From an uncultured Acidobacteriota bacterium (GTDB taxonomy: Bacteria; Acidobacteriota; Thermoanaerobaculia; Gp7-AA8): a DNA stretch of 64,000 nt. Under the pieces are notes generated by a model that was not told the origin of the DNA, did not search any database, and worked only from the letters and a program-made list of their open reading frames with translations. Positions 214 through 18,446 of the stretch are shown here, piece by piece. The position numbers and the translations under genes were made by a program. The stretch lies in the NCBI GenBank assembly GCA_963822445.1, contig CAWGHO010000001.1, positions 1,152,001 through 1,216,000 of the forward strand, read 5' to 3'. How positions within the stretch are numbered: position 1 is the first letter of the stretch; each line of letters begins with the position of its first letter.

Positions 214-220
214 ACCGTTC

Positions 221-1615
221 ATGCAGAACGGAACGGCGCGAGTTGCATGCCTTTACGGCATATTGATTCTCTTCGCCCTCGAGTCCCACGCGGCCGGCCC
301 TTTCCGCATCGGCGGCCCGGCCACCATCGATAACGACGCCAGCTGCGACATCTCCCTCCTTCCCGCTGCCACGCTGCTCCTCCCCTACTTCGAGGTCGAC
401 ATCAACTCCTGGGCCGGAACCGGCGAGAACACCATCTTCACGATCACCAACACCGGCCAGCTCCCGCAGGTCGCGCGCGTCACGCTCTGGACCGATCTCT
501 CCTATCCGGTCATCTCCTTCAACATCTACCTGACCGGATACGACGTACAGAGCATCAACCTCTACGACGTCATCGCTCGCGGTGAGATCGCTCCCGACGA
601 CGGCACCGGCGCTGATGTGTCGCCGGTCGGCGAGCTGTCCGGCACCAGTGCCACAAAGGAATTCAACAATCCGCTCGTCGATGAGCTGACCTGCACCGAT
701 TTGGTGGTGCAGATGGCCCCGCCGTACGTCACGCGCATGAAAAGCGCCTTCACCACCGGCAAGGTGCTGACCGCCGGCGAGCTCGGGGCCTGCGCTCAAG
801 GCGGTTCGGCCCATTCGAACGCGGTCGGATACGCAACCGTCGACGTCGTCGGCCGGTGCGGCATCACGATGCCGAACGATCCCGTGTACTTCGCGAACGA
901 CATCCGTTTCGACAACGTGCTCATGGGCGACTTCCACCAGATCAACGGCAACGAAGACTTCGCCCAGGGCGGGACGATGGTGCACATCCGAGCCATCCCC
1001 GAGGGGGGGACGCCGCAGACGCGGGATGACGATCGAGACTTCGAAGTGCACGTCCCCCGGACGTTCTACAGCGCCTATCAGGATCCCGCCCGGCCCACGC
1101 TCGATGCGCGACAACCCCTGCCGTCGCTGTTCGCGGCCCGGTGGATCAGCGGCGGTCCGAGCGGTTTCGAGACCGATTACAAGATCTGGCGCGAGGTCGG
1201 CCGCGAGCCCGACTCCTGCCGCGCGCATGCGTCCAACACCCAGGAGTTCCGGGAAATCGTCCGCTTCGATGAAGAGGAGAATGCCGAGGTCTTTCGATAC
1301 GAGTGCGTCGTGACGTGTCCGGCGTACGTGAGCAGCCTTCCGGCGACGTCGCGGGTCAGTGTCGCGCATGACTCCGACCTGCCCCAGAGCTCCCAGGGCG
1401 TCGTCAGCGGCTGGATGTACCTGAACCTCGACGATCGCGTGCGCGACGACATCGCCAGACAGGCCTGGGTGGTCGTCTCCATGCGCGCCGATGACCGCTT
1501 CTCCACCGACTTCGACGCCCTGGCCCTCGGCAACGGCTGCACGGCCCCTCTCGGGACGAGCGAAGCGAATCACGGCGACTTTCACATCGGTCCGGCGCGC
1601 AACAAGAGGAACTGA
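221..1615 (+). CDS. Secreted paralog family protein, copy 1 (function unknown)
   Basis: 464 aa; signal-peptide-like N-terminus; family motifs NDASCDISLLPAATLLLPYFEVD, RFDEEEN, GWMYLNLD, ALGNGC. Confidence 0.9.
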   Translation: MQNGTARVACLYGILILFALESHAAGPFRIGGPATIDNDASCDISLLPAATLLLPYFEVDINSWAGTGENTIFTITNTGQLPQVARVTLWTDLSYPVISFNIYLTGYDVQSINLYDVIARGEIAPDDGTGADVSPVGELSGTSATKEFNNPLVDELTCTDLVVQMAPPYVTRMKSAFTTGKVLTAGELGACAQGGSAHSNAVGYATVDVVGRCGITMPNDPVYFANDIRFDNVLMGDFHQINGNEDFAQGGTMVHIRAIPEGGTPQTRDDDRDFEVHVPRTFYSAYQDPARPTLDARQPLPSLFAARWISGGPSGFETDYKIWREVGREPDSCRAHASNTQEFREIVRFDEEENAEVFRYECVVTCPAYVSSLPATSRVSVAHDSDLPQSSQGVVSGWMYLNLDDRVRDDIARQAWVVVSMRADDRFSTDFDALALGNGCTAPLGTSEANHGDFHIGPARNKRN

Positions 1616-2967
1616 TGCGCCGCGCGCTGGCAGCGATCGTCCTCTTCACCTCGATCGGTGCCGCGGCATCGACGATCGACAACGACGACAGTTGCGACAT
1701 CTCCCTGCTTCCCGCGGCGACGCTCCTTCTCCCCTATTTCGAGGTGGACATCGAGCCTGCCTACGGCACTACAGACACCACCATCTTCACGGTCACCAAC
1801 GTCAGCCAGTTTCCGCAGATCGCGCGGGTGACGCTCTGGACCGATCTCGCTTATCCCGTCTTCACGTTCAACCTTTATCTGACGGGTTACGACGTGCAGA
1901 GCATCAACCTCTTCGACGTCATCGCCCACGGCAAGGTCGCGCCCGACGACGGCACCGGCGTTGATGTCTCGCCGATCGGCCGGCTCTCCCGCGCAAACGC
2001 GAACCATCCCGCCTACGACAATCCGATCATCGACGAGCAATCGTGTGCCGGCCTGCCCGTCGAGTTGAACGCGGCCATGGTCGCGCGGATGCGGAGCGCG
2101 TTCACGACCGGCAGGGCCTCGGGCGCGAACGCGATGGCCGCGTGCAACACCGCGGGTGAAGTCCACATCAACGCCGCCGGCTACGTGACCATCGACGTGG
2201 TCGGACGCTGCGGCAGCACGATGCCCAACGACCCGGCCTACTACGCCGGCGACATCCGCTTCGACAACGTGTTGATCGGCGATTACCACCAGATCAGGAG
2301 TAGAGAGGATTTCGCCCAGGGCGGGACGATGGTGCACATCCGGGCCATCCCGGAGGGGGGAACGCCTGAGACGCGGGCCGGCGATTCGGACTATCGGGTG
2401 AATCTGCCGCGGACCTTCTACAGCGCGTACCAGGATCCGGCGCGGCCGCTCTTCGACGCTCGCCAGCCGCTTCCCTCGCTTTTCGCTGCGCGCTGGATTG
2501 AAGGGTTCGTCGGCGGTTTCGAGACTTTCTACAAGGTCTGGCGTGAGTCGCGGAACCCGGCCGCATGCCGCGATTACAACATCAACCGCCAGGAGGTGCG
2601 AGACCCGGTCCGCTTCGACGAGGAAGAAAACCCGGAGGCCTACGAGCACTTCTGCTTAGTCCCATGTTTACCGCCCATCTCGCGGATGTCCTCGAGCTCG
2701 CTCATCGGAACTGACCGCGACGACCATCTGCCGGCCAACGCGCAGGGCGCCGTCGCCGGCTGGATGTACCTGAACCTCGACGATCGTCAGAACGACGACG
2801 TCGCCAGGCAGGCCTGGGTGGTCGTCTCCATGCGCGCCGAGGATCGCTTTTCCACCGATTTCGATGCGCTCGCTCTCGGCAACGGCTGCTCTGCCCCGGT
2901 AGGAAGGAGCGAAGCGAATCCCTACGGCACCGTTTCCATCGGCCCCGCGCCGAACAAGAGGAAGTGA
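1615..2967 (+). CDS. Secreted paralog family protein, copy 2
   Basis: 450 aa; TGATG overlap with copy 1; signal peptide MRRALAAIVLF...; same motifs. Confidence 0.9.
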   Translation: MRRALAAIVLFTSIGAAASTIDNDDSCDISLLPAATLLLPYFEVDIEPAYGTTDTTIFTVTNVSQFPQIARVTLWTDLAYPVFTFNLYLTGYDVQSINLFDVIAHGKVAPDDGTGVDVSPIGRLSRANANHPAYDNPIIDEQSCAGLPVELNAAMVARMRSAFTTGRASGANAMAACNTAGEVHINAAGYVTIDVVGRCGSTMPNDPAYYAGDIRFDNVLIGDYHQIRSREDFAQGGTMVHIRAIPEGGTPETRAGDSDYRVNLPRTFYSAYQDPARPLFDARQPLPSLFAARWIEGFVGGFETFYKVWRESRNPAACRDYNINRQEVRDPVRFDEEENPEAYEHFCLVPCLPPISRMSSSSLIGTDRDDHLPANAQGAVAGWMYLNLDDRQNDDVARQAWVVVSMRAEDRFSTDFDALALGNGCSAPVGRSEANPYGTVSIGPAPNKRK

Positions 2968-4346
2968 TGCACCACAAATCGACGATCGTCGCCCTGCTCC
3001 TGTTCGCGTTCGCGCGCATCGCCTTCGCCGACGGTCCGTTCCGCGTCGGTGGTCCGGCCACCATCGACAACGACGCCAGCTGCGACATCTCCCTGCTCCC
3101 GGCGGCCACACTGCTCCTGCCGTATTTCGAAGTCGACCTCAACTCGCGTGCCGAGAGAGCTGAGACCACGATCTTCACCATCACCAATACCAGCCAGGTC
3201 CCGCAGATCGCGCGGGTCACGCTGTGGACGGATCTCGCCTATCCCGTCATCACCTTCAACATCTATCTGACCGGCTATGACGTGCAGAGCATCAATCTCT
3301 ACGACGTCATCCGCCGTGGCGAAGTCGCGCCGGATGACGGCACGGGTTTCGACCGCTCGCCGGTGGGAGAGTTGTCAGGAACGACTCCGACCACTGACTT
3401 TGACAACCCGCTCATCGACGAGCAAACCTGTGTGAATCTGCCGGTCAAGCTGCCGGCCGCTCTCACGACGCGGATGCAGAGCGCCTTCACTACCGGCCGG
3501 GTGACCGGCGCCGACGGTTTGTCCGCGTGCGCGACCGCCGGCGGAACGCATCCGACCGCCGTCGGCTACGCGACGATCGACGTCGTCGGCCGGTGCGACA
3601 GCACCATGCCCAGCAGTCTCGCCTACTTCGCCAGCGACATCCGCTACGAAAACGTGCTGATGGGCGATTACCACCAGATCAACGGCGACGAGGACTTCGC
3701 CCAGGGCGGCACGATGGTCCACATCCGGGCGATTCCGGAGGGCGGCACGCCGCAGACGCGCGACGAGGCACCCGAGTTTCGAGTGAACCTGCCGCGTACG
3801 TTCTACGGCCGGTATCAGCATCCCGACCGGCCCAAACTCGACGCGCGACAGCCGCTGCCGTCGCTCTTCGCGGCACGGTGGATCGAAGGCGGCGCGGGTG
3901 GCTTCGAGACCTTCTACAAGGTCTGGCGGGAGTCGCGGAACCCGGCCGCATGCGGCAACTACAAAGCAAACGACCAGGTCGTGCGGGATGGCGTCCGCTT
4001 CGACGAGGAAGAAAACCCAATGACTTATGACCGCTATTGCTACATCACGTGTCCTTGGTGGGTCCCGCGGATGCCATCCGCGTCGCTGGTCGACGTATCC
4101 CGGGACGACGATCTGCCTACGAACACACAGGGCGCCGTCGCCGGCTGGATGTACCTCAACCTCGATGGTGAGGACGACGAGATCGCCGGACAGGCCTGGG
4201 TGGTCGTCTCCATGCGCTCCGAGGATCGCTTCTCCACGGACTTCGATGCGCTCGCTCTCGGGAACGGTTGCTCCGCGCCGGCGGGCCTGAGCGAAGCGGA
4301 CTACGGCGACTTTCCCATCGGCCCGGCGCCGAACAGGAGGAAGTGA
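2967..4346 (+). CDS. Secreted paralog family protein, copy 3
   Basis: ATG at 2967 overlaps the TGA of copy 2; signal peptide MHHKSTIVALLLFAF; same motifs. Confidence 0.9.
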   Translation: MHHKSTIVALLLFAFARIAFADGPFRVGGPATIDNDASCDISLLPAATLLLPYFEVDLNSRAERAETTIFTITNTSQVPQIARVTLWTDLAYPVITFNIYLTGYDVQSINLYDVIRRGEVAPDDGTGFDRSPVGELSGTTPTTDFDNPLIDEQTCVNLPVKLPAALTTRMQSAFTTGRVTGADGLSACATAGGTHPTAVGYATIDVVGRCDSTMPSSLAYFASDIRYENVLMGDYHQINGDEDFAQGGTMVHIRAIPEGGTPQTRDEAPEFRVNLPRTFYGRYQHPDRPKLDARQPLPSLFAARWIEGGAGGFETFYKVWRESRNPAACGNYKANDQVVRDGVRFDEEENPMTYDRYCYITCPWWVPRMPSASLVDVSRDDDLPTNTQGAVAGWMYLNLDGEDDEIAGQAWVVVSMRSEDRFSTDFDALALGNGCSAPAGLSEADYGDFPIGPAPNRRK

Positions 4347-5731
4347 TGCACCACAAATCGACGATCGTCGCCCTGCTCCTGTTCGCGTTCGCGCGCATCG
4401 CCTTCGCGGACGGTCCGTTCCGCGTTGGCGGTCCGGCCACCATCGATAACGACGCCAGCTGCGACATCTCCCTCCTGCCTGCGGCCACGCTCCTGCTGCC
4501 GTACTTCGAAGTCGACATCACCTCTGCCGCCGGCACGGGCGAGACCACGATCTTCACGATCACCAATGTCAGCCAGGTCCCCCAGATCGCGCGGGTCACG
4601 CTGTGGACCGATCTCGCCTATCCGGTCTTCACCTTCAACATCTACCTGACCGGCTATGACGTGCAGAGCATCAATCTCTACGACGTCATCCGCCGTGGCG
4701 AAGTCGCGCCGGATGACGGCACCGGTTTCGACCGCTCGCCGGTGGGAGAGTTGTCCGGAACGACAGCGACCACGGACTTCGACAACCCGCTCATCGACGA
4801 GGGAACCTGTGTGAATCTGCCGGTCAAACTGCCGGCCGCTCTCACAACCCGGATGCAGAGCGCCTTCACCACCGGCCGCGTGACGGGCGTCGACGGTTTG
4901 TCCGCGTGCTCGACCGCCGGCGGAACGCATCACAACGCCGTTGGTTACGCGACGATCGACGTCGTCGGCCGGTGCGACAGCACCATGCCCAGCAGCCTCG
5001 CCTACTTCGCCAGCGACATCCGCTACGAGAACGTGCTCATGGGCGATTACCACCAGATCAACGGCGACGAGGACTTCGCCCAGGGCGGCACGATGGTCCA
5101 CATCCGCGCCATTCCGGAGGGGGGCACGCCGCAGACACGCGATGACGAACCGGCGTACCGGGTCAACCTGCCGCGCACGTTTTACGGGGCGTATCAGCAT
5201 CCCGACCGCCCCACGCTCGACGCGCGTCAGCCGCTGCCGTCTCTTTTCGCAGCCCGCTGGGTCAGCGGCGGCGCCTCGGGATTCGAGACCTACTTCAAGA
5301 TCTGGCGCGAGGGACGCGGCAGACTCGAGTCCTGTGCGGCTTACAAGACGAACGCGTTCGCCGCCCAGGATTCAGTGCGGTTTGACGAGGAGGAGAATCC
5401 AGAGGCGTCGAATAACTACTGCTTTCCGCCGTACTACTGCTTTGTCCCGCTATTCAATCCGACTTCGCTCATCGATAGCGAGAGCGACGACTTCCCGCCG
5501 AATACCCAGGGCGCCATCGGCGGCTGGATGTATCTGAACCTCGACGATCATCAAGTCGACGGCGACGCCCGCCAGGCCTGGGTGGTCATCTCCATGCGCG
5601 CCGAGGATCGCTTCTCCACCGACTTCGATGCTCTTGCTCTCGGGAACGGCTGCTCAGCGCCGGTGGGCATCAGCGAAGCGAAAGGCGGCGACCTTCCCAT
5701 CGGCCCGGCGCCGAACAAGAGGCAGCCATGA
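4346..5731 (+). CDS. Secreted paralog family protein, copy 4
   Basis: ATG at 4346 (TGATG) after AGGAGG; N-terminal two-thirds nearly identical to copy 3. Confidence 0.9.
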   Translation: MHHKSTIVALLLFAFARIAFADGPFRVGGPATIDNDASCDISLLPAATLLLPYFEVDITSAAGTGETTIFTITNVSQVPQIARVTLWTDLAYPVFTFNIYLTGYDVQSINLYDVIRRGEVAPDDGTGFDRSPVGELSGTTATTDFDNPLIDEGTCVNLPVKLPAALTTRMQSAFTTGRVTGVDGLSACSTAGGTHHNAVGYATIDVVGRCDSTMPSSLAYFASDIRYENVLMGDYHQINGDEDFAQGGTMVHIRAIPEGGTPQTRDDEPAYRVNLPRTFYGAYQHPDRPTLDARQPLPSLFAARWVSGGASGFETYFKIWREGRGRLESCAAYKTNAFAAQDSVRFDEEENPEASNNYCFPPYYCFVPLFNPTSLIDSESDDFPPNTQGAIGGWMYLNLDDHQVDGDARQAWVVISMRAEDRFSTDFDALALGNGCSAPVGISEAKGGDLPIGPAPNKRQP

Positions 5732-6954
5732 GAATGGCGCTCGCTGCCATGTTCCTGCTCGCGATCGGAGCCACCGCGCAGCCGGTGACGAACAACGACG
5801 CCAGTTGCGACATCTCCGTCGCCCCGGCGGCCACGTTGCTGCTGCTCCTCTTCGAGGTGAATCTCACCGCTCCCGCGGGGACCGGCGAGACGACGATCTT
5901 CACGGTCACGAACACAGGGAAATCGCCGCAGATCGCGCGGGTCACGTTGTGGACTGACCTCGCCTACCCGGTCTTCACCTTCAACATCCCGCTCGCCGGT
6001 TACGAGGCGCAGAGCATCAACCTCTTCGACGTCCTCGGTCGTGGCGAGATTCGCGGCCGCGCAGGTTCCTGCGCGAATTTCACCCCGCGGCTGGATCCAC
6101 CGGTTCGCACCCGGATGCAGCGGGCGTTCACCAGGGGCACAGTCAACGGCCTTCCGCCTTTGCCCGACTGCCCCGCCGTTGGCGCGCGGCACGCCAATGC
6201 CATCGGGTACGCGACGATCGACGTCGTCGGTGATTGCGACTCGTCGATGCCCACCGATCGTGAGTACTTCTCCAACGACATCCGCTTCGACAACGTTCTC
6301 CTCGGCGACTACCAGCAGATCAACGGCGACGAGGATTTCGCGCAGGGAACACCGATGGTGCACATCCGGGCCATTCCGGAAGTGATGGCGCCGCGCACGT
6401 TTTACGGGCTGTATCAGCACCCCGCCCGTCCGTCGTTCGACGCGCGGCAGCCACTGCCCTCTTTGTTCGCGGCGAGGTGGATCGACGGGCCGGGCGTGGA
6501 GACGCACTACAAGATCTGGCGCGAGTCTCTCGACGACTTCCTCGCATGTGCCGGCTATGCGCAAAACTTCCGGCCGGTCAGGGAAGTGGTTCGCTTCGAT
6601 GAAGACGAGAACGTCGAGACCACCGCATCGGACTATCTTTTCCTCGGCCCCTCCACCGATGTCTCCCTCCGGGCGACGTCCGTGGTCGACGCCGCGGCCC
6701 ATCACAACTTCCCCGATAACAGCGACGGAGCCGTCGGAGGGTGGATGTACTTCAACCTCGACGGCCTCAATCGGGTTACGCCCCATCCTTCCCAGGGCTG
6801 GGTGACGATCTCCATGCGCGCGCAAAACCGGTTCTCCATCGACTTTGACGCGGCGTATCTCGGCAACGGATGCAGCGCGCCGGTGGACATCAGCGAGGCC
6901 ACCGCCTGGGGAGGGCCTCCCATCGGCCCGGCGCCGAACAAGAGGCAGCATTGA
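5728..6954 (+). CDS. Secreted paralog family protein, copy 5 (shorter, lacks two loops)
   Basis: 408 aa; ATGA overlap; same motifs; lacks the APDDGTG...DNP and GGT...N insertions. Confidence 0.9.
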   Translation: MRMALAAMFLLAIGATAQPVTNNDASCDISVAPAATLLLLLFEVNLTAPAGTGETTIFTVTNTGKSPQIARVTLWTDLAYPVFTFNIPLAGYEAQSINLFDVLGRGEIRGRAGSCANFTPRLDPPVRTRMQRAFTRGTVNGLPPLPDCPAVGARHANAIGYATIDVVGDCDSSMPTDREYFSNDIRFDNVLLGDYQQINGDEDFAQGTPMVHIRAIPEVMAPRTFYGLYQHPARPSFDARQPLPSLFAARWIDGPGVETHYKIWRESLDDFLACAGYAQNFRPVREVVRFDEDENVETTASDYLFLGPSTDVSLRATSVVDAAAHHNFPDNSDGAVGGWMYFNLDGLNRVTPHPSQGWVTISMRAQNRFSIDFDAAYLGNGCSAPVDISEATAWGGPPIGPAPNKRQH

Positions 6955-8216
6955 AGCCGGCGCTCGCCGCCGTGATGCTGCTTGCCTTCGCGGCCACCGC
7001 CCAACCCGTGACGAACAACGACGCCAGTTGCGACATCTCCGTCGCCCCGGCGGCCACGTTGCTGCTGCCCTTTTTCGAAGTAAATCTCACCGTTCCCGCC
7101 GGGACCGGCGAGACGACGATCTTCACCGTCACGAACACAGGGAAATCGCCGCAGATCGCGCGGGTAACGCTATGGACCGACCTGGCCTACCCGGTCTTTA
7201 CCTTCAACATTCCTCTCGCCGGTTACGAGGCGCAGAGCATCAACCTCTTCGATGTCCTCGGTCGTGGCGCGATTCGCGGCGGCTCGGAATCATGCGGAGG
7301 TTCCCTGCGACGGTTGGATCCACCGGTCCTCGCCCGGATGCAGCGGGCGTTCACCACGGGCAAAGTCAACGGCCTTCCGTCTTTACCCGACTGTCCCTTC
7401 GTCGGTATGCGGCACGCAAATGCCATCGGGTACGCGACCATCGACGTCGTCGGTGATTGCGACTCGTCGTTGCCCACCGACGGCGACTACTTCTCGAACG
7501 ACATCCGCTTCGACAACGTGCTCCTCGGCGACTACCAGCAGGTCAAGGGCGACGAAGATTTCGCGCAGGGCGGAACGATGGTGCATATCCGCGCGATCCC
7601 CGAGGGAGGTACCGTGCAAAGCCGCGCCGGCGATCCCAGATTCGCGGTGAATGCACCGCGCACCTTTTACAACGTCTACCAGCATCCCGCCCGTCCGCGG
7701 TTCGACGCCCGTCAAGCCTTGCCCTCGCTGTTCGCGGCGAGGTGGATCGAAGGAGACCGGAGCGGTTTCGAAACGCACTACAAGATCTGGCGCGAGTCTC
7801 GTGACAACCACATCTCCTGCGTGGCTTATGCGCGGAACTACAGGCCGGTCCTGGAAACGGTGCGCTTCGATGAAGAGGAAAACTTCGAAACGATGGCACC
7901 TGAGATCCTCGTCCCCGGCGCCCCCTATGAGCTCTACCTTCCCGCGGCGTCCATCACGGACATCGCGGCGAACAAAGACTTCCCACTCAACACCATGGGG
8001 GCGATCGCCGGGTGGATGTATCTCAACCTCGACGACCTGGATCGCGACAGCCATGCCTCCCAGGGCTGGGTTTCCGTCTCCATGCGCGCGGAGGATCGAT
8101 ACTCCACGGACATGGACGCGGCGTATCTCGGCAATGGCTGCAGCGCACCGGTGGATACCAGCGAGGCGACTCTCTGGGGGCCAGCCATCGGGCCGGCGCC
8201 GAACACCCGTAAGTAA
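6951..8216 (+). CDS. Secreted paralog family protein, copy 6
   Basis: Probable TTG start at 6951 overlapping the copy 5 stop (MKPALAAVMLLAFAATAQP); N-terminal half close to copy 5. Confidence 0.88.
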   Translation: MKPALAAVMLLAFAATAQPVTNNDASCDISVAPAATLLLPFFEVNLTVPAGTGETTIFTVTNTGKSPQIARVTLWTDLAYPVFTFNIPLAGYEAQSINLFDVLGRGAIRGGSESCGGSLRRLDPPVLARMQRAFTTGKVNGLPSLPDCPFVGMRHANAIGYATIDVVGDCDSSLPTDGDYFSNDIRFDNVLLGDYQQVKGDEDFAQGGTMVHIRAIPEGGTVQSRAGDPRFAVNAPRTFYNVYQHPARPRFDARQALPSLFAARWIEGDRSGFETHYKIWRESRDNHISCVAYARNYRPVLETVRFDEEENFETMAPEILVPGAPYELYLPAASITDIAANKDFPLNTMGAIAGWMYLNLDDLDRDSHASQGWVSVSMRAEDRYSTDMDAAYLGNGCSAPVDTSEATLWGPAIGPAPNTRK

Positions 8217-8235
8217 CAATTTCGAAAAACCGCCC

Positions 8236-8265
8236 TTGACTGTGATGCTGTAGCAGCATTAAGTT
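8236..8265 (+). promoter_or_regulatory. Sigma70-like promoter with the same operator, upstream of copy 7
   Basis: TTGACT (8236-8241), ATGCTG-TAG-CAGCAT (8245-8259), TAAGTT (8260-8265). Confidence 0.7.
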
Positions 8266-9701: not shown

Positions 9702-10978
9702 AACGCATCGCTCTGATTCTGCTGCTCCTCGCCACTCCTCTCTTCGCCGCAACGTCGCGCAACGACGACTCCTGCGACATCGGACTCTTCCCCGCGGCGA
9801 CGCTCCTGCTCCCCTATTTCGAAGTCGACATCGCCTCGCCTGAAGGCAGCGGCGAGACCACGATCTTCACGGTCACGAACACGAGCCCACTGCCGCAGGC
9901 GGCGCGGGTCACGCTCTGGACCGACTTTGCCTACCCGGTGACCTCCTTCAACATCTTTCTCACCGGCTACGACGTCCAGAGCGTCAACCTGTACAACGTC
10001 ATCGTGAAGGGATTGATCGAAGAAACCGGCAGTGACGTATCGCCGCGCGGGCCCACTTCCTCGGCCGATAACAACAGGTTGAACGAGGCCAGCTGCACGG
10101 ACATCCCCGCGCAACTGCCGGCCGCGTTCCGCGAACGGATGAAGAGCGCCCTCACCCTGGGCAAGGCACCCGCCATCGGCGAAGGGGAGGCGTGCAACAC
10201 GGCCGGTGGCGTGCACACGAACGCGATCGGGTACGCGACCATCGATGTCGTCGGCGTCTGCTCGGCCACGCGGCCGATCGACGCGGTCTACTTCACGCAC
10301 GAGATCCGATTCGACAACGTGCTCATGGGCGACTACATCCAGGTCAACGGCGCGGAAGATTTCGCCCAGGCCAATCCCATGGTGCACATCCGGGCCATTC
10401 CCGAGGGCGGTGAGGTTTCCACGCGCCGCAAGACGAACATGCCCCGCACGTTCTACAGCCGCCTGCAGAGCGGCGGGACCCTCGGCGCCGACGGACGGCA
10501 GCCGCTCCCGGCGAAGTTCGGCGCGCGCTGGATCTCAGGGGGCGCGAATGGCTTCGACACGTTCTACAAAATCTGGCGCGAGTCGAAGGCTACGTCGCAG
10601 GCGGTCTGTTCGGCGTATCCAGCGGGGACCCATCAGTCTTTCGCGCCCGTCCGCTTCGACGAAGAGGAGAATCCCGAGACGATATCTCCACACACCGGCA
10701 CTCCCCCCGGTGACGTGACCCCGAGAACGCTTGCGACGAGCCTTTCCCGCGTGGACGACGAGAGCCGTTTCCCGCCGAACACACACGAAGCCGTCGGCGG
10801 CTGGATGTACCTCAATCTCGACGACGGACGCGACGACACGATCGCCAGCCAGAACTGGGTCGTGGCGTCGATGCGTGTGGAAGACCGGTTCTCCGTCGAT
10901 ATTGAGGCTACGCAACTTGGCAACGGCTGCACGCCGGCCGAGACTGGTATCGAGGAACTGGCCGCCCGCGGGAACTGA
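9698..10978 (+). CDS. Secreted paralog family protein, copy 8
   Basis: GTG start at 9698 (GTGA overlap) after AGGAGG; MKRIALILLLLATPLFAA signal peptide; same motifs. Confidence 0.9.
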   Translation: MKRIALILLLLATPLFAATSRNDDSCDIGLFPAATLLLPYFEVDIASPEGSGETTIFTVTNTSPLPQAARVTLWTDFAYPVTSFNIFLTGYDVQSVNLYNVIVKGLIEETGSDVSPRGPTSSADNNRLNEASCTDIPAQLPAAFRERMKSALTLGKAPAIGEGEACNTAGGVHTNAIGYATIDVVGVCSATRPIDAVYFTHEIRFDNVLMGDYIQVNGAEDFAQANPMVHIRAIPEGGEVSTRRKTNMPRTFYSRLQSGGTLGADGRQPLPAKFGARWISGGANGFDTFYKIWRESKATSQAVCSAYPAGTHQSFAPVRFDEEENPETISPHTGTPPGDVTPRTLATSLSRVDDESRFPPNTHEAVGGWMYLNLDDGRDDTIASQNWVVASMRVEDRFSVDIEATQLGNGCTPAETGIEELAARGN

Positions 10979-11009
10979 TTTCTTGACATTCCTGCGCTCG
11001 GGGCGGACC

Positions 11010-12835: not shown

Positions 12836-14334
12836 AACGGCGTTCCCTTTTTTTGGCTCTGCATGTCACTTTTTTGACATCAACCCTTTCCGCGCAACTC
12901 CCCGAGCTCGACACGTACATCGAGAACGCCCGCAAGCAGTGGGAGTGTCCCGGCATCGCCGTGGCCGTGGTCAGGGACGGCAAGGTTCTGATGACGAAAG
13001 GCTACGGCGTCCGCACGCTCGGCAGGCCGGAGCTCGTCGACGAGAACACGATGTTCGACACGGCGTCGCTGTCGAAGTCCTTCACCGCTGCCGCGATCGC
13101 CACGCTCGTCGACCAGGGAAAAATGCGCTGGGACGATCCCGTGCGAAAGCATCTGCCCACGCTCGAGTTTCCCGATGCCTATCGCAGCGCGAACGTCACC
13201 GTCCGCGACCTCCTCGCCCATCGCATCGGTCTCGAGCCGGCGAATTTCATGATGCGCATGACGAACTATCCGACCGAGGAGGTGCTGCGGCGGGTGCGGT
13301 TCCTCGAGGAGCGCGATCCGTTCCGCAGCACGTTCACCTACTTCAACATCGGTTACGCGATCGCCGGTGAAGCCGCCGCAGCGGCCGCAAAGATGTCCTT
13401 CGCGGATCTGGTCCGCACGAGTCTCGTCGAGCCGCTGGGCATGCGCGACACGACCGTCGCCGTCGATCACGCGCGCGCGTCGAATCACGCTTCATCGCAT
13501 GCGCGGATCGACGGAGTGCATCAGCCCATTCGCACGCGCAAGCGGATGAACATTCAGGGCGCGAACGCAGTGAACTCCACGGCCAAAGACATGGCCAGAT
13601 GGCTGCTCTTCAACCTCGGCGACGGGACGTGGGAAGGAAAAAAGATCCTGACGCCGGAGGCGCTCGCCGAGATGCATTCGCCGCACTCGATCATCCCCAC
13701 CACCCCGGCCATGCGCGCCGCGCGCGGCGTTCACTTTTTCGGCGGGTACGGTCTGGGATGGCAAGTCATGGACTATCGCGGCCACAAGATGCTCTGGCAC
13801 AGCGGCAACGCCGACTGCATGCCCGTGTACATGGCCATCCTGCCGAACGAGAAGATCGGCGTGCTGGTGATGACGAACAGCTGGGAAGCGGGAACGCTGC
13901 ACGGCATGATCGCCGGCCGCATCCTCGACACGCTCCTCGGCGACGTGCCGCTGAAGGATTCTGCGGCCGAAGGCCTGGAGGGATTCCGCAACGCGGCGAA
14001 GCGGGCTGTCGAGGAACGCGAGGCAGTCGAGAAAGCGCGCATCACCGGCACGAAACCCTCGCGGCCGCTCGATGCCTACGCCGGGACTTACGTCGACACC
14101 ATGCATGGCGACATGGTCGTCAAGCATGAAAACGGACGGCTGACGCTGACGTTCGGCGGCGGCGAGCAGGCCGATCTCGAGCACTGGCACCACGACGTCT
14201 TCAGCGTCCGCTGGCACGACCGCGCCTACGAGTGGGCGGACACGTTCATCGCCTTCGCACTGGACGCGTCAGGGACGCCGAAGAGGTTCGAGATGAAGTT
14301 GTATCGGGACCTGATCGAGGCGGTACGGCGTTGA
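12832..14334 (+). CDS. Secreted serine hydrolase, beta-lactamase/class C-like, with a DUF3471-like C-terminus
   Basis: ATGA overlap at 12832; signal peptide; SLSK (SxxK), YFN and WHSG motifs; LDAYAGTY C-terminal domain. Confidence 0.9.
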   Translation: MKRRSLFLALHVTFLTSTLSAQLPELDTYIENARKQWECPGIAVAVVRDGKVLMTKGYGVRTLGRPELVDENTMFDTASLSKSFTAAAIATLVDQGKMRWDDPVRKHLPTLEFPDAYRSANVTVRDLLAHRIGLEPANFMMRMTNYPTEEVLRRVRFLEERDPFRSTFTYFNIGYAIAGEAAAAAAKMSFADLVRTSLVEPLGMRDTTVAVDHARASNHASSHARIDGVHQPIRTRKRMNIQGANAVNSTAKDMARWLLFNLGDGTWEGKKILTPEALAEMHSPHSIIPTTPAMRAARGVHFFGGYGLGWQVMDYRGHKMLWHSGNADCMPVYMAILPNEKIGVLVMTNSWEAGTLHGMIAGRILDTLLGDVPLKDSAAEGLEGFRNAAKRAVEEREAVEKARITGTKPSRPLDAYAGTYVDTMHGDMVVKHENGRLTLTFGGGEQADLEHWHHDVFSVRWHDRAYEWADTFIAFALDASGTPKRFEMKLYRDLIEAVRR

Positions 14335-14359
14335 CAAAAATGCTGATACGGCATAGTTT
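14331..14359 (+). promoter_or_regulatory. Sigma70-like promoter with the same operator, upstream of copy 9
   Basis: TTGACA (14331-14336), ATGCTG-ATA-CGGCAT (14340-14354), TAGTTT (14354-14359). Confidence 0.7.
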
Positions 14360-14370
14360 AAGGCCTCGAT

Positions 14371-15744
14371 ATGCCCATAAAGCATCGCGGGACTGTCCTC
14401 CTCCTCCTTTGTCTCGCTGCCCCGATGGTCTCCGGCGCCACGCCGACGATCGATAACGACTCCGGCTGCGACATCGCCCTCCTTCCCGCGGCCACGCTGC
14501 TGCTGCCCTATTTCGAAGTGGACATCCACGCGGAGGCGGGCAAAGGCGAGACGACGATCTTCACCATCACCAACGTCACGAACCTTCCCCAGATCGCGCA
14601 TGTCACGTTGTGGACGGACCTCGGCTATCCGGTGATCGACTTCAACCTCTATCTGACCGGCTACGACGTGCAGAGCATCAATCTGTACGACGTGATCGGC
14701 TGGGGCCAGATCGCGCCCGACGACGGCACGGGCATGGATGTATCACCGGTCGGGGATTTGTCGGGGCCTACGCCGACGCTCGACAACGACAATCCGCTCG
14801 CGATCGAGGCGAGCTGTGTCGATCTGCCGGTCGAGCTTCCTCGCCGCTACGCCACCCTCATGCAGCAGGCCTTCACGACGGGGAAAACGACACCCCTGAC
14901 TCTCGGCCAGCCGGTCTGCGAGCGGATCGGAAACGTGCACCTGAATGCGGTCGGCTACGCCACGATCGACGTGGTCAGCAATTGCACAACCGCGCTGCCG
15001 ACGCAGAGCCGATACTTCGAGAACGAGATCCTGTTCGACAACACCCTGGTCGGCGACTACCTGCAGTTCAACGGAACGGACGGCGCGGCCCAGGGCGGAC
15101 CGATGGTTCACATCCGCGCCATTCCGGAAGGTGGAACACCGCGGACGCGAGCGGACAACCCGGCGTATCAGGTCAACTTCCCGCGCACGTTCTACAGCCG
15201 CTATCAACTTCCGTCGAAGCCGCGGTTCGATGCGCGGCAGCCGCTGCCCGCGCTTTTTTCGGCGCGGTTCATCTCCGGTGATTACGGCGAGCGAACCCTT
15301 CTGAAGGTCTGGCGCGAAGGACGCGAGAGCGGCACGGCGTGCGGCGCTTACAAGGTCAACCTGATGAACATGAGCGATGTGGTTGTCTTCGACGAAGAAG
15401 AGAACCCAGCCACCATCGTTCCCGGCCCGTACTTGCCCGGGCCGTCCACGGATCCCCTCCTGCCCGCGACCTCGACGGTCGACGTGGAAGGGCCGGTTCT
15501 CATTTTCTCCTCGCCCGCGTTCCAGAACGACAGCGGCTGGCTTTACCTGAACCTCGACTACGACAGATACGACGCCTTCGCAAGCCAGAACTGGGTCATC
15601 TCATCGATGCGCGCAGGTTCCACCTACACCGTGGACATCCCCGCATCCGCCCTCGGCAACGGATGCTCCGCGCCGATCAGTTACAGCCAAGCCTCCAGCC
15701 GCGACGGCACCGTGATCGGCCCGCCACCGAACACGAGGCCATGA
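14371..15744 (+). CDS. Secreted paralog family protein, copy 9
   Basis: 457 aa; signal peptide; NDSGCDIALLPAATLLLPYFEVD...GWLYLNLD...LGNGC. Confidence 0.9.
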   Translation: MPIKHRGTVLLLLCLAAPMVSGATPTIDNDSGCDIALLPAATLLLPYFEVDIHAEAGKGETTIFTITNVTNLPQIAHVTLWTDLGYPVIDFNLYLTGYDVQSINLYDVIGWGQIAPDDGTGMDVSPVGDLSGPTPTLDNDNPLAIEASCVDLPVELPRRYATLMQQAFTTGKTTPLTLGQPVCERIGNVHLNAVGYATIDVVSNCTTALPTQSRYFENEILFDNTLVGDYLQFNGTDGAAQGGPMVHIRAIPEGGTPRTRADNPAYQVNFPRTFYSRYQLPSKPRFDARQPLPALFSARFISGDYGERTLLKVWREGRESGTACGAYKVNLMNMSDVVVFDEEENPATIVPGPYLPGPSTDPLLPATSTVDVEGPVLIFSSPAFQNDSGWLYLNLDYDRYDAFASQNWVISSMRAGSTYTVDIPASALGNGCSAPISYSQASSRDGTVIGPPPNTRP

Positions 15745-17102
15745 CCATGCGCGCGGCGATCCTCACAATCCTCATCGCCGTTGGCCTTTCCGCCGGCGCC
15801 GCCGATGCCACGATCGACAACGATGCCGGTTGCGACCTCTCGCTCCTTCCCGCAGCGACGCTCCTTCTCCCGTATTTCGAGGTCGATCTCGCCTCCGGGC
15901 CGGGGCTGGGCGAGACCACGATCTTCACCATCACCAACGTCGCGAACATCCCCCAGGCCGCGCGCGTGACCCTGTGGACCGATCTGGGTTACCCCGTCAT
16001 CACCTTCAACATCTATCTCACCGGCTACGACGTGCAGAGCATCAATCTTTACGACTTTTTCGCGCGAGGCCGGATCGCGCCGAACGACGGGACCGGTTCC
16101 GATGTCTCTCCGGTCGGCAAGCTATCCGGCACGTCGCCAACCCGCGACTTCGACAACCCGCTGCTCGCCGAATCCACTTGCGTCGACTTCCCGGTGCAGC
16201 TGCCCCCGAATTACATCTCCCCCATCCAGCGGACATTCACCACAGGCGATGTCGACCCTCTGCCGCATGACCGGACACGGCCGGCATGCCAGAAGATCGG
16301 AGAGCCGCATGTGAACGCGATCGGTTACGCGACCATCGACGTCGTTGGCACGTGCACGTACACGTTGCCTAACGAGCCCCGCTATTTCTCCGACGAGATC
16401 CTGTTCGACAACGTCCTGACCGGCGATTACGTGCAGCTCCGGGGCAAGGACCACGTCGTCCAGGCCGGTCCGCTCGTGCACATCCGGGCCATTCCCGAGG
16501 GGGGCTCGGCGCGGTCGCGGGTGGGCGACGCCAGGTATCTCAGCCGGTTTCCGCGGACGTTCTACAGCCGTTATCAGCATCCCGAGCGCCCGCGCAGCGA
16601 TGCGCGTCAGCCGCTTCCGAGCGTCTTCGTCGCCCGTTTCCTCGGCGGCCGCCGCTCCGAACCTCAGTCCTTCCTGAAAATCTGGCGCGAAGGCCGCGAA
16701 TTCGGCACGGCTTGCAACGTCTACTCCTTGCGAAACCGGACGGCACTCACCGAGGTGATCCGCTTCGACGAGGAAGAGAATCCGTCCACCCACGCACCGT
16801 CGAACAGCCCTTATGACCAGCCCCCCAACGTCCCGTTGGCCTTCATGACCGATGTCAATCGCGGCGGCATCGTCCCGTCGTACTCGGACGAACCCAACGG
16901 CTGGATCTACGTGAACCTCGACGGTTACTACGACAACGACAACATCCCCACGCAGGGCTGGGTCATCTCGTCGATGCACTCGGGCGGATATTCGGTCGAC
17001 CTGCCCGCCACTGCCCTGGGAAATGGATGTTCAGCGCTGGTCGCACCCACCGACCACGACGGCACACCACCCATCGGACCGGCGCCGAACGTGAGGCGCT
17101 GA
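15741..17102 (+). CDS. Secreted paralog family protein, copy 10
   Basis: ATGA overlap at 15741 (alternative ATG at 15747); signal peptide MRAAILTILIAVG; same motifs. Confidence 0.9.
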   Translation: MTMRAAILTILIAVGLSAGAADATIDNDAGCDLSLLPAATLLLPYFEVDLASGPGLGETTIFTITNVANIPQAARVTLWTDLGYPVITFNIYLTGYDVQSINLYDFFARGRIAPNDGTGSDVSPVGKLSGTSPTRDFDNPLLAESTCVDFPVQLPPNYISPIQRTFTTGDVDPLPHDRTRPACQKIGEPHVNAIGYATIDVVGTCTYTLPNEPRYFSDEILFDNVLTGDYVQLRGKDHVVQAGPLVHIRAIPEGGSARSRVGDARYLSRFPRTFYSRYQHPERPRSDARQPLPSVFVARFLGGRRSEPQSFLKIWREGREFGTACNVYSLRNRTALTEVIRFDEEENPSTHAPSNSPYDQPPNVPLAFMTDVNRGGIVPSYSDEPNGWIYVNLDGYYDNDNIPTQGWVISSMHSGGYSVDLPATALGNGCSALVAPTDHDGTPPIGPAPNVRR

Positions 17103-17105
17103 GGC

Positions 17106-18446
17106 ATGCGTATCTTTGTTCTTCTTCTGCTGACCGCCGTCACGTTGTCCGCAGGTGCATCGAAGGTCAACAACGACGCCACCTGCGACATCGCCCAACT
17201 CCCTGCCGCAACGCTGTTGCTGCCGTACTTCGAAGTCGACCTCAGCTCGGGGCCGGGAGCCGGCGAGACGACGATCTTCACCATCACCAACGTCACGAAC
17301 CTCCCGCAGATCGCCCATGTCACGTTGTGGACGGATCTCGGGTATCCAGTGATCGACGTCAACATCTACCTGACCGGTTACGACGTGCAGAGCATCAATC
17401 TCTACGACCTGTTGAAGTTCGGCTGGGTCGCGGCGCCGGACGGAACGGGTTCGGACGTGTCGCCGGTTGGGAGATTGTCGGGAATCCCGGACAGGAGCGA
17501 CTTCGATAACCTGAACGCCGATGAGTCGACGTGCATCGACCTGCCCGTGCAACTGCCTCGCGTCTATGTCGACCGGATGCAGCAGGCCTTTACCACCGGC
17601 AACGCCGGTCCGGCGGGCAAGTTCCGCTCCTGCCAGAAAATCGGCAAGCCCCATCGCAACGCGGTCGGATATGTGACGATCGACGTCGTCAGCATCTGCA
17701 GCACCACGATGCCGATCGACCAGCCCTACTTCACCAGGGAGATCCTGTTCGACAACGTGCTCACCGGCGATTACGTGCAGTTCAACGGCACGACAAAGAC
17801 CGCGCAGGGCGGGCCACTCGTTCACATCCGGGCGATTCCCGAGGGAGGAACGCCTGGCTCGCGGCGCGTGCCGGAATACAAGGTCCATCTGCCCCGGACG
17901 TTCTACAGCCGCTACCAGCCTGCGTCGCAGCCCCGTTTCGACGCGCGTCAGCCTCTCCCCTCCGTGTTTGCAGCGCGATACATCTCCGATGCCGGTCAAC
18001 GGACGTTCCTGAAGATGTGGCGGGAAGGGAGCGAGGTCGGTACCGCATGCGAGGCTTACTCGCGGAACGAGCGGTACGTCGCCGATGTGGTGCGCTTCGA
18101 TGAAGAGGAAAACGCGGAAGGCGTGTTCGTCTTCATCAACGCCCAACCACATGTCGCGCTCTTTCCGTTTCTTCCGCTGACCTCGATTCACGACATCGAT
18201 GATGGCGGCGTGTTCCCCGACAGTCCCGGCGGGGACGGCGGCTGGCTCTACCTGAACATGGACTACGACAACCGCGACGACTTCGCCGGCCAGGCCTGGG
18301 TGATCTCCTCGATGCGCGCCGGCAATGGCTTCTCCGTGGACATGCCCGCAACACCTCTCGGCAACGGCTGCTCGGCGCCGGTCGACCTCTCCGAAGGCTC
18401 ATCGGGCCTCGCGACGATCGGCCCCGCGCCGAACATCCAGCCCTGA
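17106..18446 (+). CDS. Secreted paralog family protein, copy 11
   Basis: 446 aa; signal peptide; same motifs. Confidence 0.9.
   Translation: MRIFVLLLLTAVTLSAGASKVNNDATCDIAQLPAATLLLPYFEVDLSSGPGAGETTIFTITNVTNLPQIAHVTLWTDLGYPVIDVNIYLTGYDVQSINLYDLLKFGWVAAPDGTGSDVSPVGRLSGIPDRSDFDNLNADESTCIDLPVQLPRVYVDRMQQAFTTGNAGPAGKFRSCQKIGKPHRNAVGYVTIDVVSICSTTMPIDQPYFTREILFDNVLTGDYVQFNGTTKTAQGGPLVHIRAIPEGGTPGSRRVPEYKVHLPRTFYSRYQPASQPRFDARQPLPSVFAARYISDAGQRTFLKMWREGSEVGTACEAYSRNERYVADVVRFDEEENAEGVFVFINAQPHVALFPFLPLTSIHDIDDGGVFPDSPGGDGGWLYLNMDYDNRDDFAGQAWVISSMRAGNGFSVDMPATPLGNGCSAPVDLSEGSSGLATIGPAPNIQP

What the first reader, a model, noticed from the sequence alone, without database searches (positions are those of the whole stretch)
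221..18446. Co-regulated tandem arrays of 11 paralogous secreted proteins of unknown function: candidate diversified surface or extracellular-polymer system
Seen: 11 same-strand ORFs of ~410-465 aa, each with its own signal peptide and a shared scaffold (ND.SCD+.LLPAATLLLPYFEVD ... TLWTD..YP..F ... GY.TIDVV..C ... RQPLP..F.AR ... FDEEEN ... GW.Y.NL ... LGNGC). Most are coupled by TGATG/ATGA/GTGA overlaps, and they fall into three promoter-led units. I recognise no catalytic motif or named family. Inference: Cys residues at both ends of the mature chain, a beta-rich-looking sequence and operonic co-expression suit subunits of a heteropolymer (S-layer, fibre or pilus-like, possibly joined by N-terminal strand donation) or a repertoire of binding proteins. 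This is the best candidate for an undescribed system in the window.
Basis: partly seen in the sequence, partly recalled or inferred. Interest (0 to 1): 0.9.

Follow-up and report, generated by a model that had tools for sequence, protein, structure and literature searches.

The report
Amplified secreted dimer-forming protein family
Eleven neighbouring genes in an uncultured soil-type Acidobacteriota genome encode diverged copies of an unnamed exported protein that most likely works as a two-part (dimeric) unit, perhaps binding sugars of the cell envelope, and that nobody has studied at the bench.

Summary
Confirmed: 11 intact same-strand paralogs (408-464 aa, 51-68% identical to the first) lie in three units. 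Each unit is headed by the same promoter/operator (TTGAC-N4-ATGCTG-N3-CNGCAT). Genome-wide, its three exact copies are these; the one 1-mismatch site heads no family gene. Within units, genes overlap or abut, and the ribosome-binding GAGG sits in the preceding gene's last codons.

The family is large (1,803 clusters at 50% identity) and unnamed in Pfam, NCBIfam and the PDB. In the genomes sampled it is almost confined to uncultured Thermoanaerobaculia.

A confident model (pLDDT 91) shows two beta-sandwiches. The first resembles TM1070/ASRT (Z 9.3), a predicted sugar-binding fold, but no sequence profile supports the link.

A homodimer prediction passes strongly (0.88 against 0.00 for controls). 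Its interface is more conserved than the rest. Of 263 relatives, 58 are fused two-module chains and none has three. The unit therefore looks like a closed symmetric dimer, not an open polymer.

The basal, slowly evolving copy lies elsewhere, in a conserved operon with an FG-GAP protein, a giant PKD protein and a Wzm/Wzt-like ABC exporter.

Best reading (0.4): an amplified, loop-diversified repertoire of dimeric envelope glycan-binding proteins. Function is untested, and no RNA run was listed. This scan's index held no look-alike.

The parts
185..208 (+). Promoter/operator 1: TTGAC, 4 bases, then palindrome ATGCTGTAACAGCAT; 13 bases before the ATG of gene 1
221..1615 (+). Paralog 1 (464 aa)
1615..2967 (+). 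Paralog 2 (450 aa). This copy was modelled (pLDDT 91.3) and used for the dimer prediction
2964..4346 (+). Paralog 3 (460 aa; start GTG 2964 or ATG 2967)
4343..5731 (+). Paralog 4 (462 aa; start GTG 4343 or ATG 4346); sister of paralog 3
5728..6954 (+). Paralog 5 (408 aa); lacks the loop at about residues 110-140
6951..8216 (+). Paralog 6 (421 aa from an inferred TTG start); same loop deletion; sister of paralog 5
8236..8259 (+). Promoter/operator 2 (TTGACTGTGATGCTGTAGCAGCAT), 110 bases before gene 7
8370..9701 (+). Paralog 7 (443 aa); short C-terminal tail
9698..10978 (+). Paralog 8 (426 aa from GTG 9698, overlapping the stop of gene 7 as GTGA)
14331..14354 (+). Promoter/operator 3 (TTGACAAAAATGCTGATACGGCAT), 16 bases before gene 9
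14371..15744 (+). Paralog 9 (457 aa)
15741..17102 (+). Paralog 10 (453 aa from ATG 15741; ATGA overlap)
17106..18446 (+). Paralog 11 (446 aa)

Best explanation
The 11 genes are intact, jointly regulated copies of one uncurated family of Sec-exported proteins of about 430 residues. In the genomes sampled the family is almost confined to uncultured Thermoanaerobaculia (Acidobacteriota).

Each protein is built of two beta-sandwich domains held by (inferred) three disulfides. The working unit is a closed, two-fold symmetric dimer. The N-terminal arm carrying N-D-x-x-C-D crosses to the partner's last strand before L-G-N-G-C. Many relatives have fused two modules into one chain.

The first sandwich has the TM1070/ASRT ('ASRAH') shape, which has been predicted to bind sugars.

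The basal copy works in a conserved envelope operon: ABC-2 permease, FG-GAP protein, this protein, a giant PKD protein, and a Wzt/TagH-like ATPase. In this genus the gene was amplified at a second locus. The copies keep the dimer interface and diverge in other segments, which I infer to be exposed loops.

Most likely mechanism: the copies form homo- and heterodimers that act as bivalent binders of an exported envelope or extracellular glycopolymer, switched on together from three identical operators.

Shown by computation: the paralogy, the family's size and range, the confident fold model, the conserved synteny and the shared operator. Predicted: the dimer. Inferred: sugar binding, heterodimers, final location (periplasm or surface) and co-regulation.

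My odds: family and amplification about 0.95; dimer about 0.8; glycan-binding role about 0.35-0.4.
For: Paralogy and selection:
- A1 identities are 51-68% to the first copy.
- The genome holds 13 copies, 11 of them in the window.
- All 55 pairwise dN/dS values lie between 0.26 and 0.52, so the copies are maintained.

Family size and range:
- 3,324 proteins at E<=0.001 among the 8,000 candidates scored.
- 1,803 representatives at 50% identity.
- Matched in 40 of 41 relatives and in 25 of 301 genomes across the phylum, 21 of those in the same class.
- All 77 loci kept come from records titled as Thermoanaerobaculia, Acidobacteriota or Acidobacteria MAGs.

Fold:
- AlphaFold2 with 75 sequences gave pLDDT 91.3 and pTM 0.91.
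- Model residues 32-244 match PDB 1NC7 (TM1070) at Z 9.3, rmsd 2.5 A, 112 of 116 residues. This was the only chain of 48,161 with Z>=8.
- A second look gave 1NC7 at Z 9.4 and three ASRT entries at Z 6.3-6.5, with the next chain at 4.1.
- The ASRAH fold was predicted to bind sugars, including in secreted forms (PMC2739507, passages read).

Dimer:
- ipSAE 0.88 (three runs 0.87, 0.89, 0.88) against 0.00 for the best of 3 controls. Partner pLDDT was 85-87, and the runs agree in at least 75% of contacts.
- The tool's calibration: 20 of 30 true homodimers and 1 of 23 monomers reach the mark. These counts hold only roughly here because my own alignment was used.
- The same residue set is listed on both chains, including contacts 30:30' and 415:416'.
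- Interface positions are more conserved than the rest: 0.65 against 0.48 in 75 diverse members (one-sided Mann-Whitney p 5e-7), and 0.76 against 0.65 in the 11 paralogs. Pairwise identity among the paralogs is 0.68 in the interface and 0.53 elsewhere.
- 58 of 263 fetched relatives have two modules and none has more. Linkers are short, mostly 17-46 residues from Cys to Cys.

Context:
- An FG-GAP gene lies next to the family gene in 24 of 29 loci from 28 genomes. An ABC-2 permease is present in 21 of 29. These loci were my choice: the best match of each genome, plus a second locus for one.
- The ATPase matches Wzt_C above its Pfam cut-off, and its best NCBIfam matches are TagH and Wzt.
- Some family members are fused to PKD, BACON or Calx-beta domains.

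Amplification:
- In the quick ML tree, operon copies are basal with short branches. Array copies form a derived clade (SH-aLRT 99) with mostly species-specific subclades.

Regulation:
- The element occurs exactly 3 times in 6.0 Mb, plus one site with 1 mismatch.
- The palindrome gave 7 strand-matches in the window against 0.64 expected; 0 of 100 shuffles reached 7.
- A like palindrome lies 28-46 bases before the first array gene in 3 of 7 array loci of other species, and in 0 of 7 operon or solo loci.
Against: - No experiment or expression data exist for any member.
- The ASRAH likeness is structural only. The Pfam ASRT model finds nothing in this genome. A profile-profile comparison with six ASRT sequences gives probability 0.25%. 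The Trp described as typical of ASRAH is not evident in the first strand.
- Sugar binding of ASRAH domains is itself a published prediction, not a measurement.
- The second domain has no match above noise (best Z 4.2).
- 23 of the 80 positions conserved at 90% or more lie in the predicted interface, several of them charged (D223, H241, R293, E336, E338, N339). That pattern would also suit a catalytic or metal site between subunits.
- The dimer is a model's confidence, not a measurement, and it used my own alignment.
- The array has no FG-GAP, PKD or ABC gene of its own, so the operon context may not carry over to the array copies.
- No window of dN above dS was seen in the four closest pairs, so positive diversifying selection is not shown.
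- Export beyond the cytoplasmic membrane is not shown; the proteins may stay in the periplasm.
- I had no access to model coordinates, so conserved residues and variable segments could not be mapped onto pockets or surfaces.
Confidence: 0.4

Rival explanations
1. An enzyme family. The dimer builds an active or metal site from conserved acidic, His and Arg residues at the subunit interface and modifies or cleaves an envelope glycopolymer or protein. The array provides isoenzymes of differing specificity.
For: - Polar positions conserved at 90% or more across 75 diverse members include D28, D77, D194, D217, N218, D223, H241, R243, Y269, R283, Q284, R293, R310, D335, E336, E338 and N339. Several of them lie in the predicted interface.
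- The operon context includes a glycopolymer-type ABC exporter.
- Fusions to PKD, BACON and Calx-beta domains are, from recall, common in secreted glycan-active enzymes.
Against: - No match to any enzyme family by sequence.
- No structural match to an enzyme above Z 4.1.
- The only clear fold match is to a small-molecule-binding type sandwich.
- Acidic clusters in exported beta-sandwiches are often calcium sites (recalled).
Confidence: 0.25
2. One reading: subunits of an open-ended heteropolymer (S-layer, fibre or pilus-like), joined head to tail by N-terminal strand donation.
For: - The N-terminal arm (residues 18-33) is predicted to pack on the partner's strand 411-423.
- Genes are translationally coupled.
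- Dimers can be the building blocks of lattices (recalled).
- The nearest named cluster in a language-model search was an S-layer domain, at a score of only 0.77, which the tool itself calls a lead only.
Against: - The interface is isologous, with identical residue lists on both chains and self-contacts 30:30'. That closes the assembly at two.
- Fused natural forms have two modules in 58 of 263 and three or more in 0 of 263.
- No usher, chaperone, sortase or anchoring domain was found among the neighbours scanned.
- Eleven diverged copies are unusual for a lattice protein.
Confidence: 0.12
3. Accessory periplasmic parts of an ABC-2-driven envelope machine, comparable in layout to NosD with NosFY (recalled). 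The protein, the FG-GAP protein and the giant PKD protein would transmit work from the ABC ATPase rather than bind a free glycan. The array copies would be interchangeable adaptors.
For: In the core operon the permease and ATPase genes bracket the three exported-protein genes, an order kept across the class.
Against: - The ATPase carries a Wzt_C-type domain and resembles TagH and Wzt, which export polymers.
- The array copies lie far from any ABC genes.
Confidence: 0.1
4. A polymorphic antagonism, decoy or recognition repertoire (for example against phage or competitors), evolving by birth and death of copies.
For: - Expansions are largely species-specific, and array copies have longer branches than operon copies.
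- Copy numbers range from 0 to 13 matches per genome among relatives.
- The variable segments lie mostly outside the conserved interface.
Against: - No immunity-like small genes, toxin domains or defence families were found.
- dN/dS stays below 1 in all 55 pairs.
Confidence: 0.08

Closest known systems
ASRAH superfamily: Thermotoga TM1070 (PDB 1NC7) and Anabaena sensory rhodopsin transducer (PDB 2II7-2II9); Pfam ASRT, PF07100
   Same: The first domain superposes on nearly the whole of TM1070: Z 9.3-9.4, 112-113 of 116-117 residues, rmsd 2.5-2.7 A. An invariant Asn (N62) ends the second predicted strand, where the ASRAH paper describes a near-invariant Asn. Secreted ASRAH forms predicted to bind surface glycans are described in that paper (PMC2739507, passages).
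   Different: There is no sequence or profile similarity. An insertion of roughly 80 residues sits inside the sandwich, and a second sandwich domain follows. Six cysteines are invariant. The predicted assembly is an arm-exchanged dimer, whereas TM1070 is described as a tetramer. The ASRAH Trp, His and Cys positions were not recognised.
Prototype (homodimeric) versus tandem-repeat galectins (comparison recalled, not tested)
   Same: A beta-sandwich binding module occurs either as a dimer of single-module chains or as a fused two-module chain, giving bivalent binding. Galectins appear among the weak structural matches at Z 3.4-4.3.
   Different: Those Z values are within noise. There is no sequence relation, the organisms are bacteria, and sugar binding is unproven here.
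ABC-transporter-dependent glycopolymer export loci (Wzm/Wzt, TagGH, KpsMT)
   Same: The operon of the basal copy has an ABC-2 permease and an ATPase with a Wzt_C domain. The closest NCBIfam models are TagH, Wzt and KpsM.
   Different: Scores are far below the equivalog cut-offs (for example TagH 262 bits against 538). The two transporter genes bracket three large exported proteins. The array in the window has no transporter genes.
   Same: An N-terminal segment is predicted to complete or cover the neighbouring subunit.
   Different: The exchange is reciprocal and closed rather than serial. No usher or chaperone genes were found among the neighbours scanned. Fusions never exceed two modules.

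Membership tests
ASRAH / ASRT superfamily (PF07100) | Eight-stranded beta-sandwich of two four-strand repeats that superposes on TM1070/ASRT | tested here: met
   1NC7 at Z 9.3-9.4 covering 112-113 of 116-117 residues; ASRT entries at Z 5.8-6.5; next unrelated chain at 4.1-4.3. The strand order itself was not inspected because no coordinates were available.
ASRAH / ASRT superfamily (PF07100) | Match to the family's sequence profile | tested here: not met
   No Pfam hit at E<=1 for 6 paralogs. PF07100 gave 0 matches in the whole genome, although it found Thermotoga and 8 of 301 phylum genomes. hhalign of A2 against six ASRT sequences (A3) gave probability 0.25%.
ASRAH / ASRT superfamily (PF07100) | Near-invariant Asn at the end of strand 2 and conserved Trp at the start of strand 1 (PMC2739507) | tested here: inconclusive
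   N62 is invariant and ends predicted strand 54-62. No Trp occurs in residues 31-44. Residue-by-residue equivalence could not be checked.
Open-ended donor-strand polymers (chaperone-usher or sortase pili) | Heterologous head-to-tail interface, with assembly genes (usher/chaperone or sortase) nearby | tested here: not met
   The predicted interface is symmetric. Neighbours scanned with Pfam show none of these genes. 0 of 263 relatives have more than two modules.
S-layer proteins | A known anchoring module (for example SLH), usually a single gene | tested here: not met
   No Pfam or NCBIfam domain of any kind was found. The genome has 13 copies. Lattice formation itself is not testable with these tools.
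Wzm/Wzt-type glycopolymer ABC exporter (operon of the basal copy, outside the window) | ABC-2 permease plus an ATPase with a C-terminal Wzt_C domain | tested here: met
   ABC2_membrane 40.2 bits (cut-off 26.9), ABC_tran 80.7 bits and Wzt_C 35.7 bits (cut-off 30.4). NCBIfam equivalog cut-offs were not reached, so the match is at family level only.
   None was found by Pfam, NCBIfam, PDB sequences, Foldseek or VIA-align. The absence of a match does not exclude a new enzyme.

The most novel reading that the evidence does not exclude
The family is the exchangeable subunit of an undescribed envelope apparatus of Thermoanaerobaculia, made of the ABC-2 transporter, an FG-GAP protein, a giant PKD protein and this dimer. 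The arrays generate a combinatorial set of homo- and heterodimers: 11 copies allow 66 dimers, and 13 copies allow 91. They would serve as a programmable recognition surface, switched on as a block by one dedicated repressor that binds ATGCYG-N3-CRGCAT. That would be a bacterial diversity-by-pairing system on a new fold combination.
Probability: 0.12. Interest if true: 0.8.

Novelty: new variant of a known kind. Interest (0 to 1): 0.5.

Why it matters
- Thermoanaerobaculia are known here only from metagenome-assembled genomes: all 77 related loci kept are MAG records. I know of no work on their envelope (recalled; not searched beyond).
- This family is one of their signature exported proteins. 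It was matched in 40 of 41 relatives and has 1,803 clusters at 50% identity, yet it is in no curated library.
- The work gives it a confident fold, a testable quaternary structure, a conserved partner set (FG-GAP protein, PKD giant, ABC exporter) and a specific operator. Ordinary experiments can now address it.
- It also shows how the same module occurs as separate genes, tandem arrays and fused pairs.
- If the glycan-binding reading holds, it adds an extracellular, dimeric branch to the ASRAH-like sandwiches.

Tried and rejected
- Modelling with only the 11 paralogs as alignment gave a useless model (pLDDT 44).
- Foldseek found nothing at E<=0.001 against the PDB or BFVD.
- The protein atlas returned only unnamed Acidobacteriota clusters. 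The best named cluster scored 0.77, which the tool rates as a lead only.
- PADLOC, PHROGs and Rfam (window 1-20000) gave nothing.
- The sigma-70 consensus scan was uninformative: 1 site found against 2.3 expected. The shared promoter was found by eye and confirmed by pattern search.
- No RNA holder was listed for window 221-10000.
- Idea: the 318-aa exported protein just upstream (P0264, with H-G and A-C-N-S-G motifs) is a legumain-like transpeptidase acting on the conserved C-terminal I-G-P-x-x-N-x-x tail. Rejected for now:
  - It has no family or PDB match.
  - Its homologs occur in 23 of 24 genus genomes, including those with a single family match, but in only 1 of 16 genomes outside the genus, although those carry the family.
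  - The tail recurs in the linkers of fused forms and lies in the predicted interface.
  - In this array the tail's last residues are shaped by the embedded ribosome-binding site.
- Idea: an inter-chain C27-C425' disulfide. The listed contacts (31-33 with 419-421') fit a parallel register at least as well as an antiparallel one, so the pairing cannot be read.
- The giant PKD protein is not a detectable relative of the family (hhalign probability 0.6%).
- dN above dS was not seen in sliding windows of the four closest pairs.
- Literature: searches found no paper on this family. Only PMC2739507 was relevant, and it concerns the ASRAH fold. Its supplementary files were not opened.
- Earlier findings of this scan: nothing by sequence.

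Full report
**1. Observation**

Eleven + strand ORFs of one family fill 221-10978 and 14371-18446. 103 of 433 mature positions are invariant in all eleven, including six cysteines. The family profile finds 13 genes in the 6.0-Mb, 3-contig genome: the 11 here, one at C2:2385705-2387027 and one at C1:215022-216389. Two genes with an internal deletion were each reported as two pieces.

All 55 pairwise dN/dS values lie between 0.26 and 0.52 with a median of 0.40, so none looks like a decaying copy. Paralogs 3 and 4 have low dS over roughly the first 260 alignment columns and high dS after that. This suggests gene conversion or recombination between copies.

**2. Gene organisation and regulation**

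At the 8 junctions inside units, the next start overlaps the previous stop in 7 cases (TGATG, GTGATG twice, ATGA twice, TTGA, GTGA). The eighth junction is a 3-base gap. A GAGG lies in the last codons of each upstream gene. This dual use explains why the tails in this array end in N-K/R-R-K-like residues, whereas other family members mostly end in N-x-[NT]-P.

Three copies of one element head the three units: TTGAC, four bases, then ATGCTG-N3-CNGCAT, followed by a -10-like hexamer. They lie at 185-208, 8236-8259 and 14331-14354. In the whole genome the element occurs exactly only at these three places. One further site has a single mismatch, and it does not precede a family gene. In the window the palindrome gave 7 strand-matches against 0.64 expected, and 0 of 100 shuffles reached 7.

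A like palindrome sits 28-46 bases before the first array gene in 3 of 7 array loci of other species. It was found in none of 7 operon or solo loci scanned. Co-regulation by a factor that binds the palindrome is an inference. No regulator was identified.

Units 2 and 3 are separated by blaI, a blaR1-like M56/HEAT gene and a beta-lactamase-fold gene. A blaI/blaR1 pair also follows the array in one other species (L019).

**3. The family**

No paralog matches Pfam or NCBIfam at E<=1 above a cut-off. One stray UPF0149 hit scored 14.7 bits against a cut-off of 25. No PDB sequence matches.

The family is large. 3,324 proteins reached E<=0.001 among the 8,000 candidates scored. All named ones among the 120 listed are called 'hypothetical' or 'predicted small secreted protein'. 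A search of cluster representatives at 50% identity found 1,803 members.

A match at E<=1e-10 was found in 40 of 41 relatives, with 0-13 matches per genome. This genome has the most. Across the phylum, 25 of 301 sampled genomes have a match. Of these, 21 are in the same class; six class genomes, five of them from one family, have none. These tallies include the unpublished genomes G002 and G030. Without them the counts are 38 of 39 and 24 of 300. All 77 loci kept from the species-representative collection are titled as MAGs of Thermoanaerobaculia, Acidobacteriota or Acidobacteria.

**4. Structure**

With 75 diverse sequences, AlphaFold2 gave pLDDT 91.3 and pTM 0.91 for paralog 2. With only the 11 paralogs as alignment it gave 44. 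The model has two beta-sandwich regions.

Foldseek found nothing at E<=0.001 in the PDB or BFVD. VIA-align against 48,161 chains gave a single hit with Z>=8: TM1070 (1NC7) at Z 9.3, rmsd 2.5 A, 112 of 116 residues, 6% identity, over model residues 32-244. ASRT (2II7) followed at Z 5.8. The second look gave 9.4 for 1NC7 and 6.3-6.5 for three ASRT entries, with the next chain at 4.1. The second domain (288-426) has no match above Z 4.2.

The ASRAH paper predicts sugar binding for this fold and describes secreted versions (PMC2739507; passages read). Sequence methods do not support membership. PF07100 finds nothing in this genome, and hhalign against six acidobacterial ASRT sequences gives probability 0.25%. 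I therefore claim 'looks like', not 'is a member'.

**5. Quaternary structure**

Two copies of mature paralog 2, supplied with alignment A2, scored ipSAE 0.88 (three runs 0.87, 0.89 and 0.88). The best of 3 controls scored 0.00. Partner pLDDT was 85-87, there were about 300 contacts, and the runs agreed in at least 75% of contacts. In the tool's calibration 20 of 30 true homodimers and 1 of 23 monomers reach the mark. Those counts hold only roughly here because I supplied my own alignment.

The residue lists are the same on both chains, apart from one residue. They are 18-33, 59-65, 90-96, 120-125, 218-247, 263-265, 291-293, 334-340, 381-385, 404-426, 433-434 and 441-449. Self-contacts such as 30:30' mark a closed two-fold dimer. 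In it the N-terminal arm touches the partner's strand 411-423.

These positions are more conserved than the rest: 0.65 against 0.48 in A2 (p 5e-7) and 0.76 against 0.65 in A1. Pairwise identity among the paralogs is 0.68 in the interface and 0.53 elsewhere.

Independent support comes from natural fusions. Of the 263 family proteins fetched, 58 have two modules and none has more. Spacing from the Cys of G-N-G-C to the Cys of the next module's S-C-D is mostly 17-46 residues, and the shortest linkers join the I-G-P tail almost directly to D-D-S-C-D. This sample is the top of two searches, not a random draw. Which cysteines pair, and whether any disulfide crosses the interface, cannot be read from the output.

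**6. Genomic context and history**

My own gene calls and clustering and a tblastn check show a conserved operon around the best-scoring copy of most genomes. Its order is ABC-2 permease, FG-GAP protein, family protein, a PKD protein of about 1,750 aa, and a Wzt/TagH-like ATPase. A TPR gene and an unknown gene lie divergently upstream.

An FG-GAP gene is adjacent to the family gene in 24 of 29 loci from 28 genomes. These include two loci outside the class where the gene order is reversed. The permease is present in 21 of 29. I chose these loci as the best match of each genome, plus a second locus for one, and the seven array loci were not in this count.

The array sits at a different place that is syntenic within the genus: btpA, cysS, ruvA, DoxX, an exported 318-aa protein, then the array, then two bPH_2 genes. 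In other species this site holds 2-5 genes or fused two-module ORFs.

In the quick maximum-likelihood tree, operon copies are basal with short branches (0.14-0.25). The tree has 52 modules and uses SH-aLRT support; the careful search did not finish. Array copies form a derived clade (support 99) with branches of 0.14-1.8 and mostly species-specific subclades. The window's copies group as 1-6 with 9-11, and 7 with 8. The array is therefore a recent, ongoing amplification of one operon component.

Variation among the paralogs is concentrated at about residues 121-140, 171-180, 251-260, 341-370, 391-400 and 431-440, mostly outside the predicted interface.

**7. Interpretation**

Three layers differ in strength.

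- Paralogy, family, range, synteny and the shared operator are computed results.
- The dimer is a strong prediction backed by conservation and fusions. I put it at about 0.8.
- The role is inference. The fold likeness, the glycopolymer-type exporter, and the fusions to PKD, BACON and Calx-beta domains point to binding of an envelope or extracellular glycan by a bivalent dimer, with the array as a loop-diversified repertoire. I put that at about 0.35-0.4.

The main rival is a new enzyme whose site is formed by the many conserved charged residues, several of them at the interface (0.25). Export is indicated only by N-terminal signal-like sequences read by eye. The final location is unknown.

**8. 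What is missing**

- No RNA run was listed.
- No paper on the family was found.
- The single complex job went to the homodimer, so the FG-GAP pairing and heterodimers remain untested.
- The scan's earlier notes held no look-alike by sequence. Two notes on other Acidobacteriota genomes mention uncurated sugar-binding-like sandwiches, one of them ASRAH-like. I did not test them.

Noticed in passing
window 1-173 (3' end); whole gene L001:17217-18173 (P0264): An exported 318-aa protein lies just upstream of the array, with E-T-H-G-T-N-G-H-G and V-I-S-A-C-N-S-G motifs. They recall the His/Cys dyad of clan CD peptidases (recalled). It has no Pfam, NCBIfam or PDB match. It is conserved in 23 of 24 genus genomes but in only 1 of 16 genomes outside the genus.
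   Followed up: partly
window 11026-14334: A blaI-type repressor, a BlaR1-like M56 peptidase with HEAT repeats, and a beta-lactamase-fold protein with DUF3471 split the array. A blaI/blaR1 pair also follows the array in another species (L019).
   Followed up: partly
window 1600-1617, 2952-2969, 4331-4348, 5716-5731, 6939-6954, 9684-9701, 15729-15744, 17088-17108: The ribosome-binding GAGG of each downstream gene lies inside the last codons of the upstream gene. This forces an Arg (AGG) into the C-terminal tail and makes this array's tails differ from the family's usual N-x-[NT]-P ending.
   Followed up: yes
window 2964-5731 (paralogs 3 and 4): Divergence is mosaic: dS is 0.07-0.5 over the first ~260 alignment columns and 0.7 to saturated after that. 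This suggests gene conversion or recombination between neighbouring copies.
   Followed up: partly
window 18460-19697: Two bPH_2 (bacterial PH domain) membrane-protein genes directly follow the array. They also follow it in 3 of 7 array loci of other species.
   Followed up: no
window 19741-21021 (- strand): An IS110-family transposase gene lies just past the array's flank.
   Followed up: no
G000:C1:1504536-1504559 (L036 1501-1524, - strand): The only other genome site resembling the array's promoter/operator (1 mismatch). It lies at the end of an alpha/beta-hydrolase-like ORF, not before a family gene.
   Followed up: partly
L010 (G024) 7227-14742: In one relative the core operon carries two family genes, one on each side of the giant PKD gene.
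   Followed up: no
It is unrelated to this finding, and I did not examine it.
   Followed up: no
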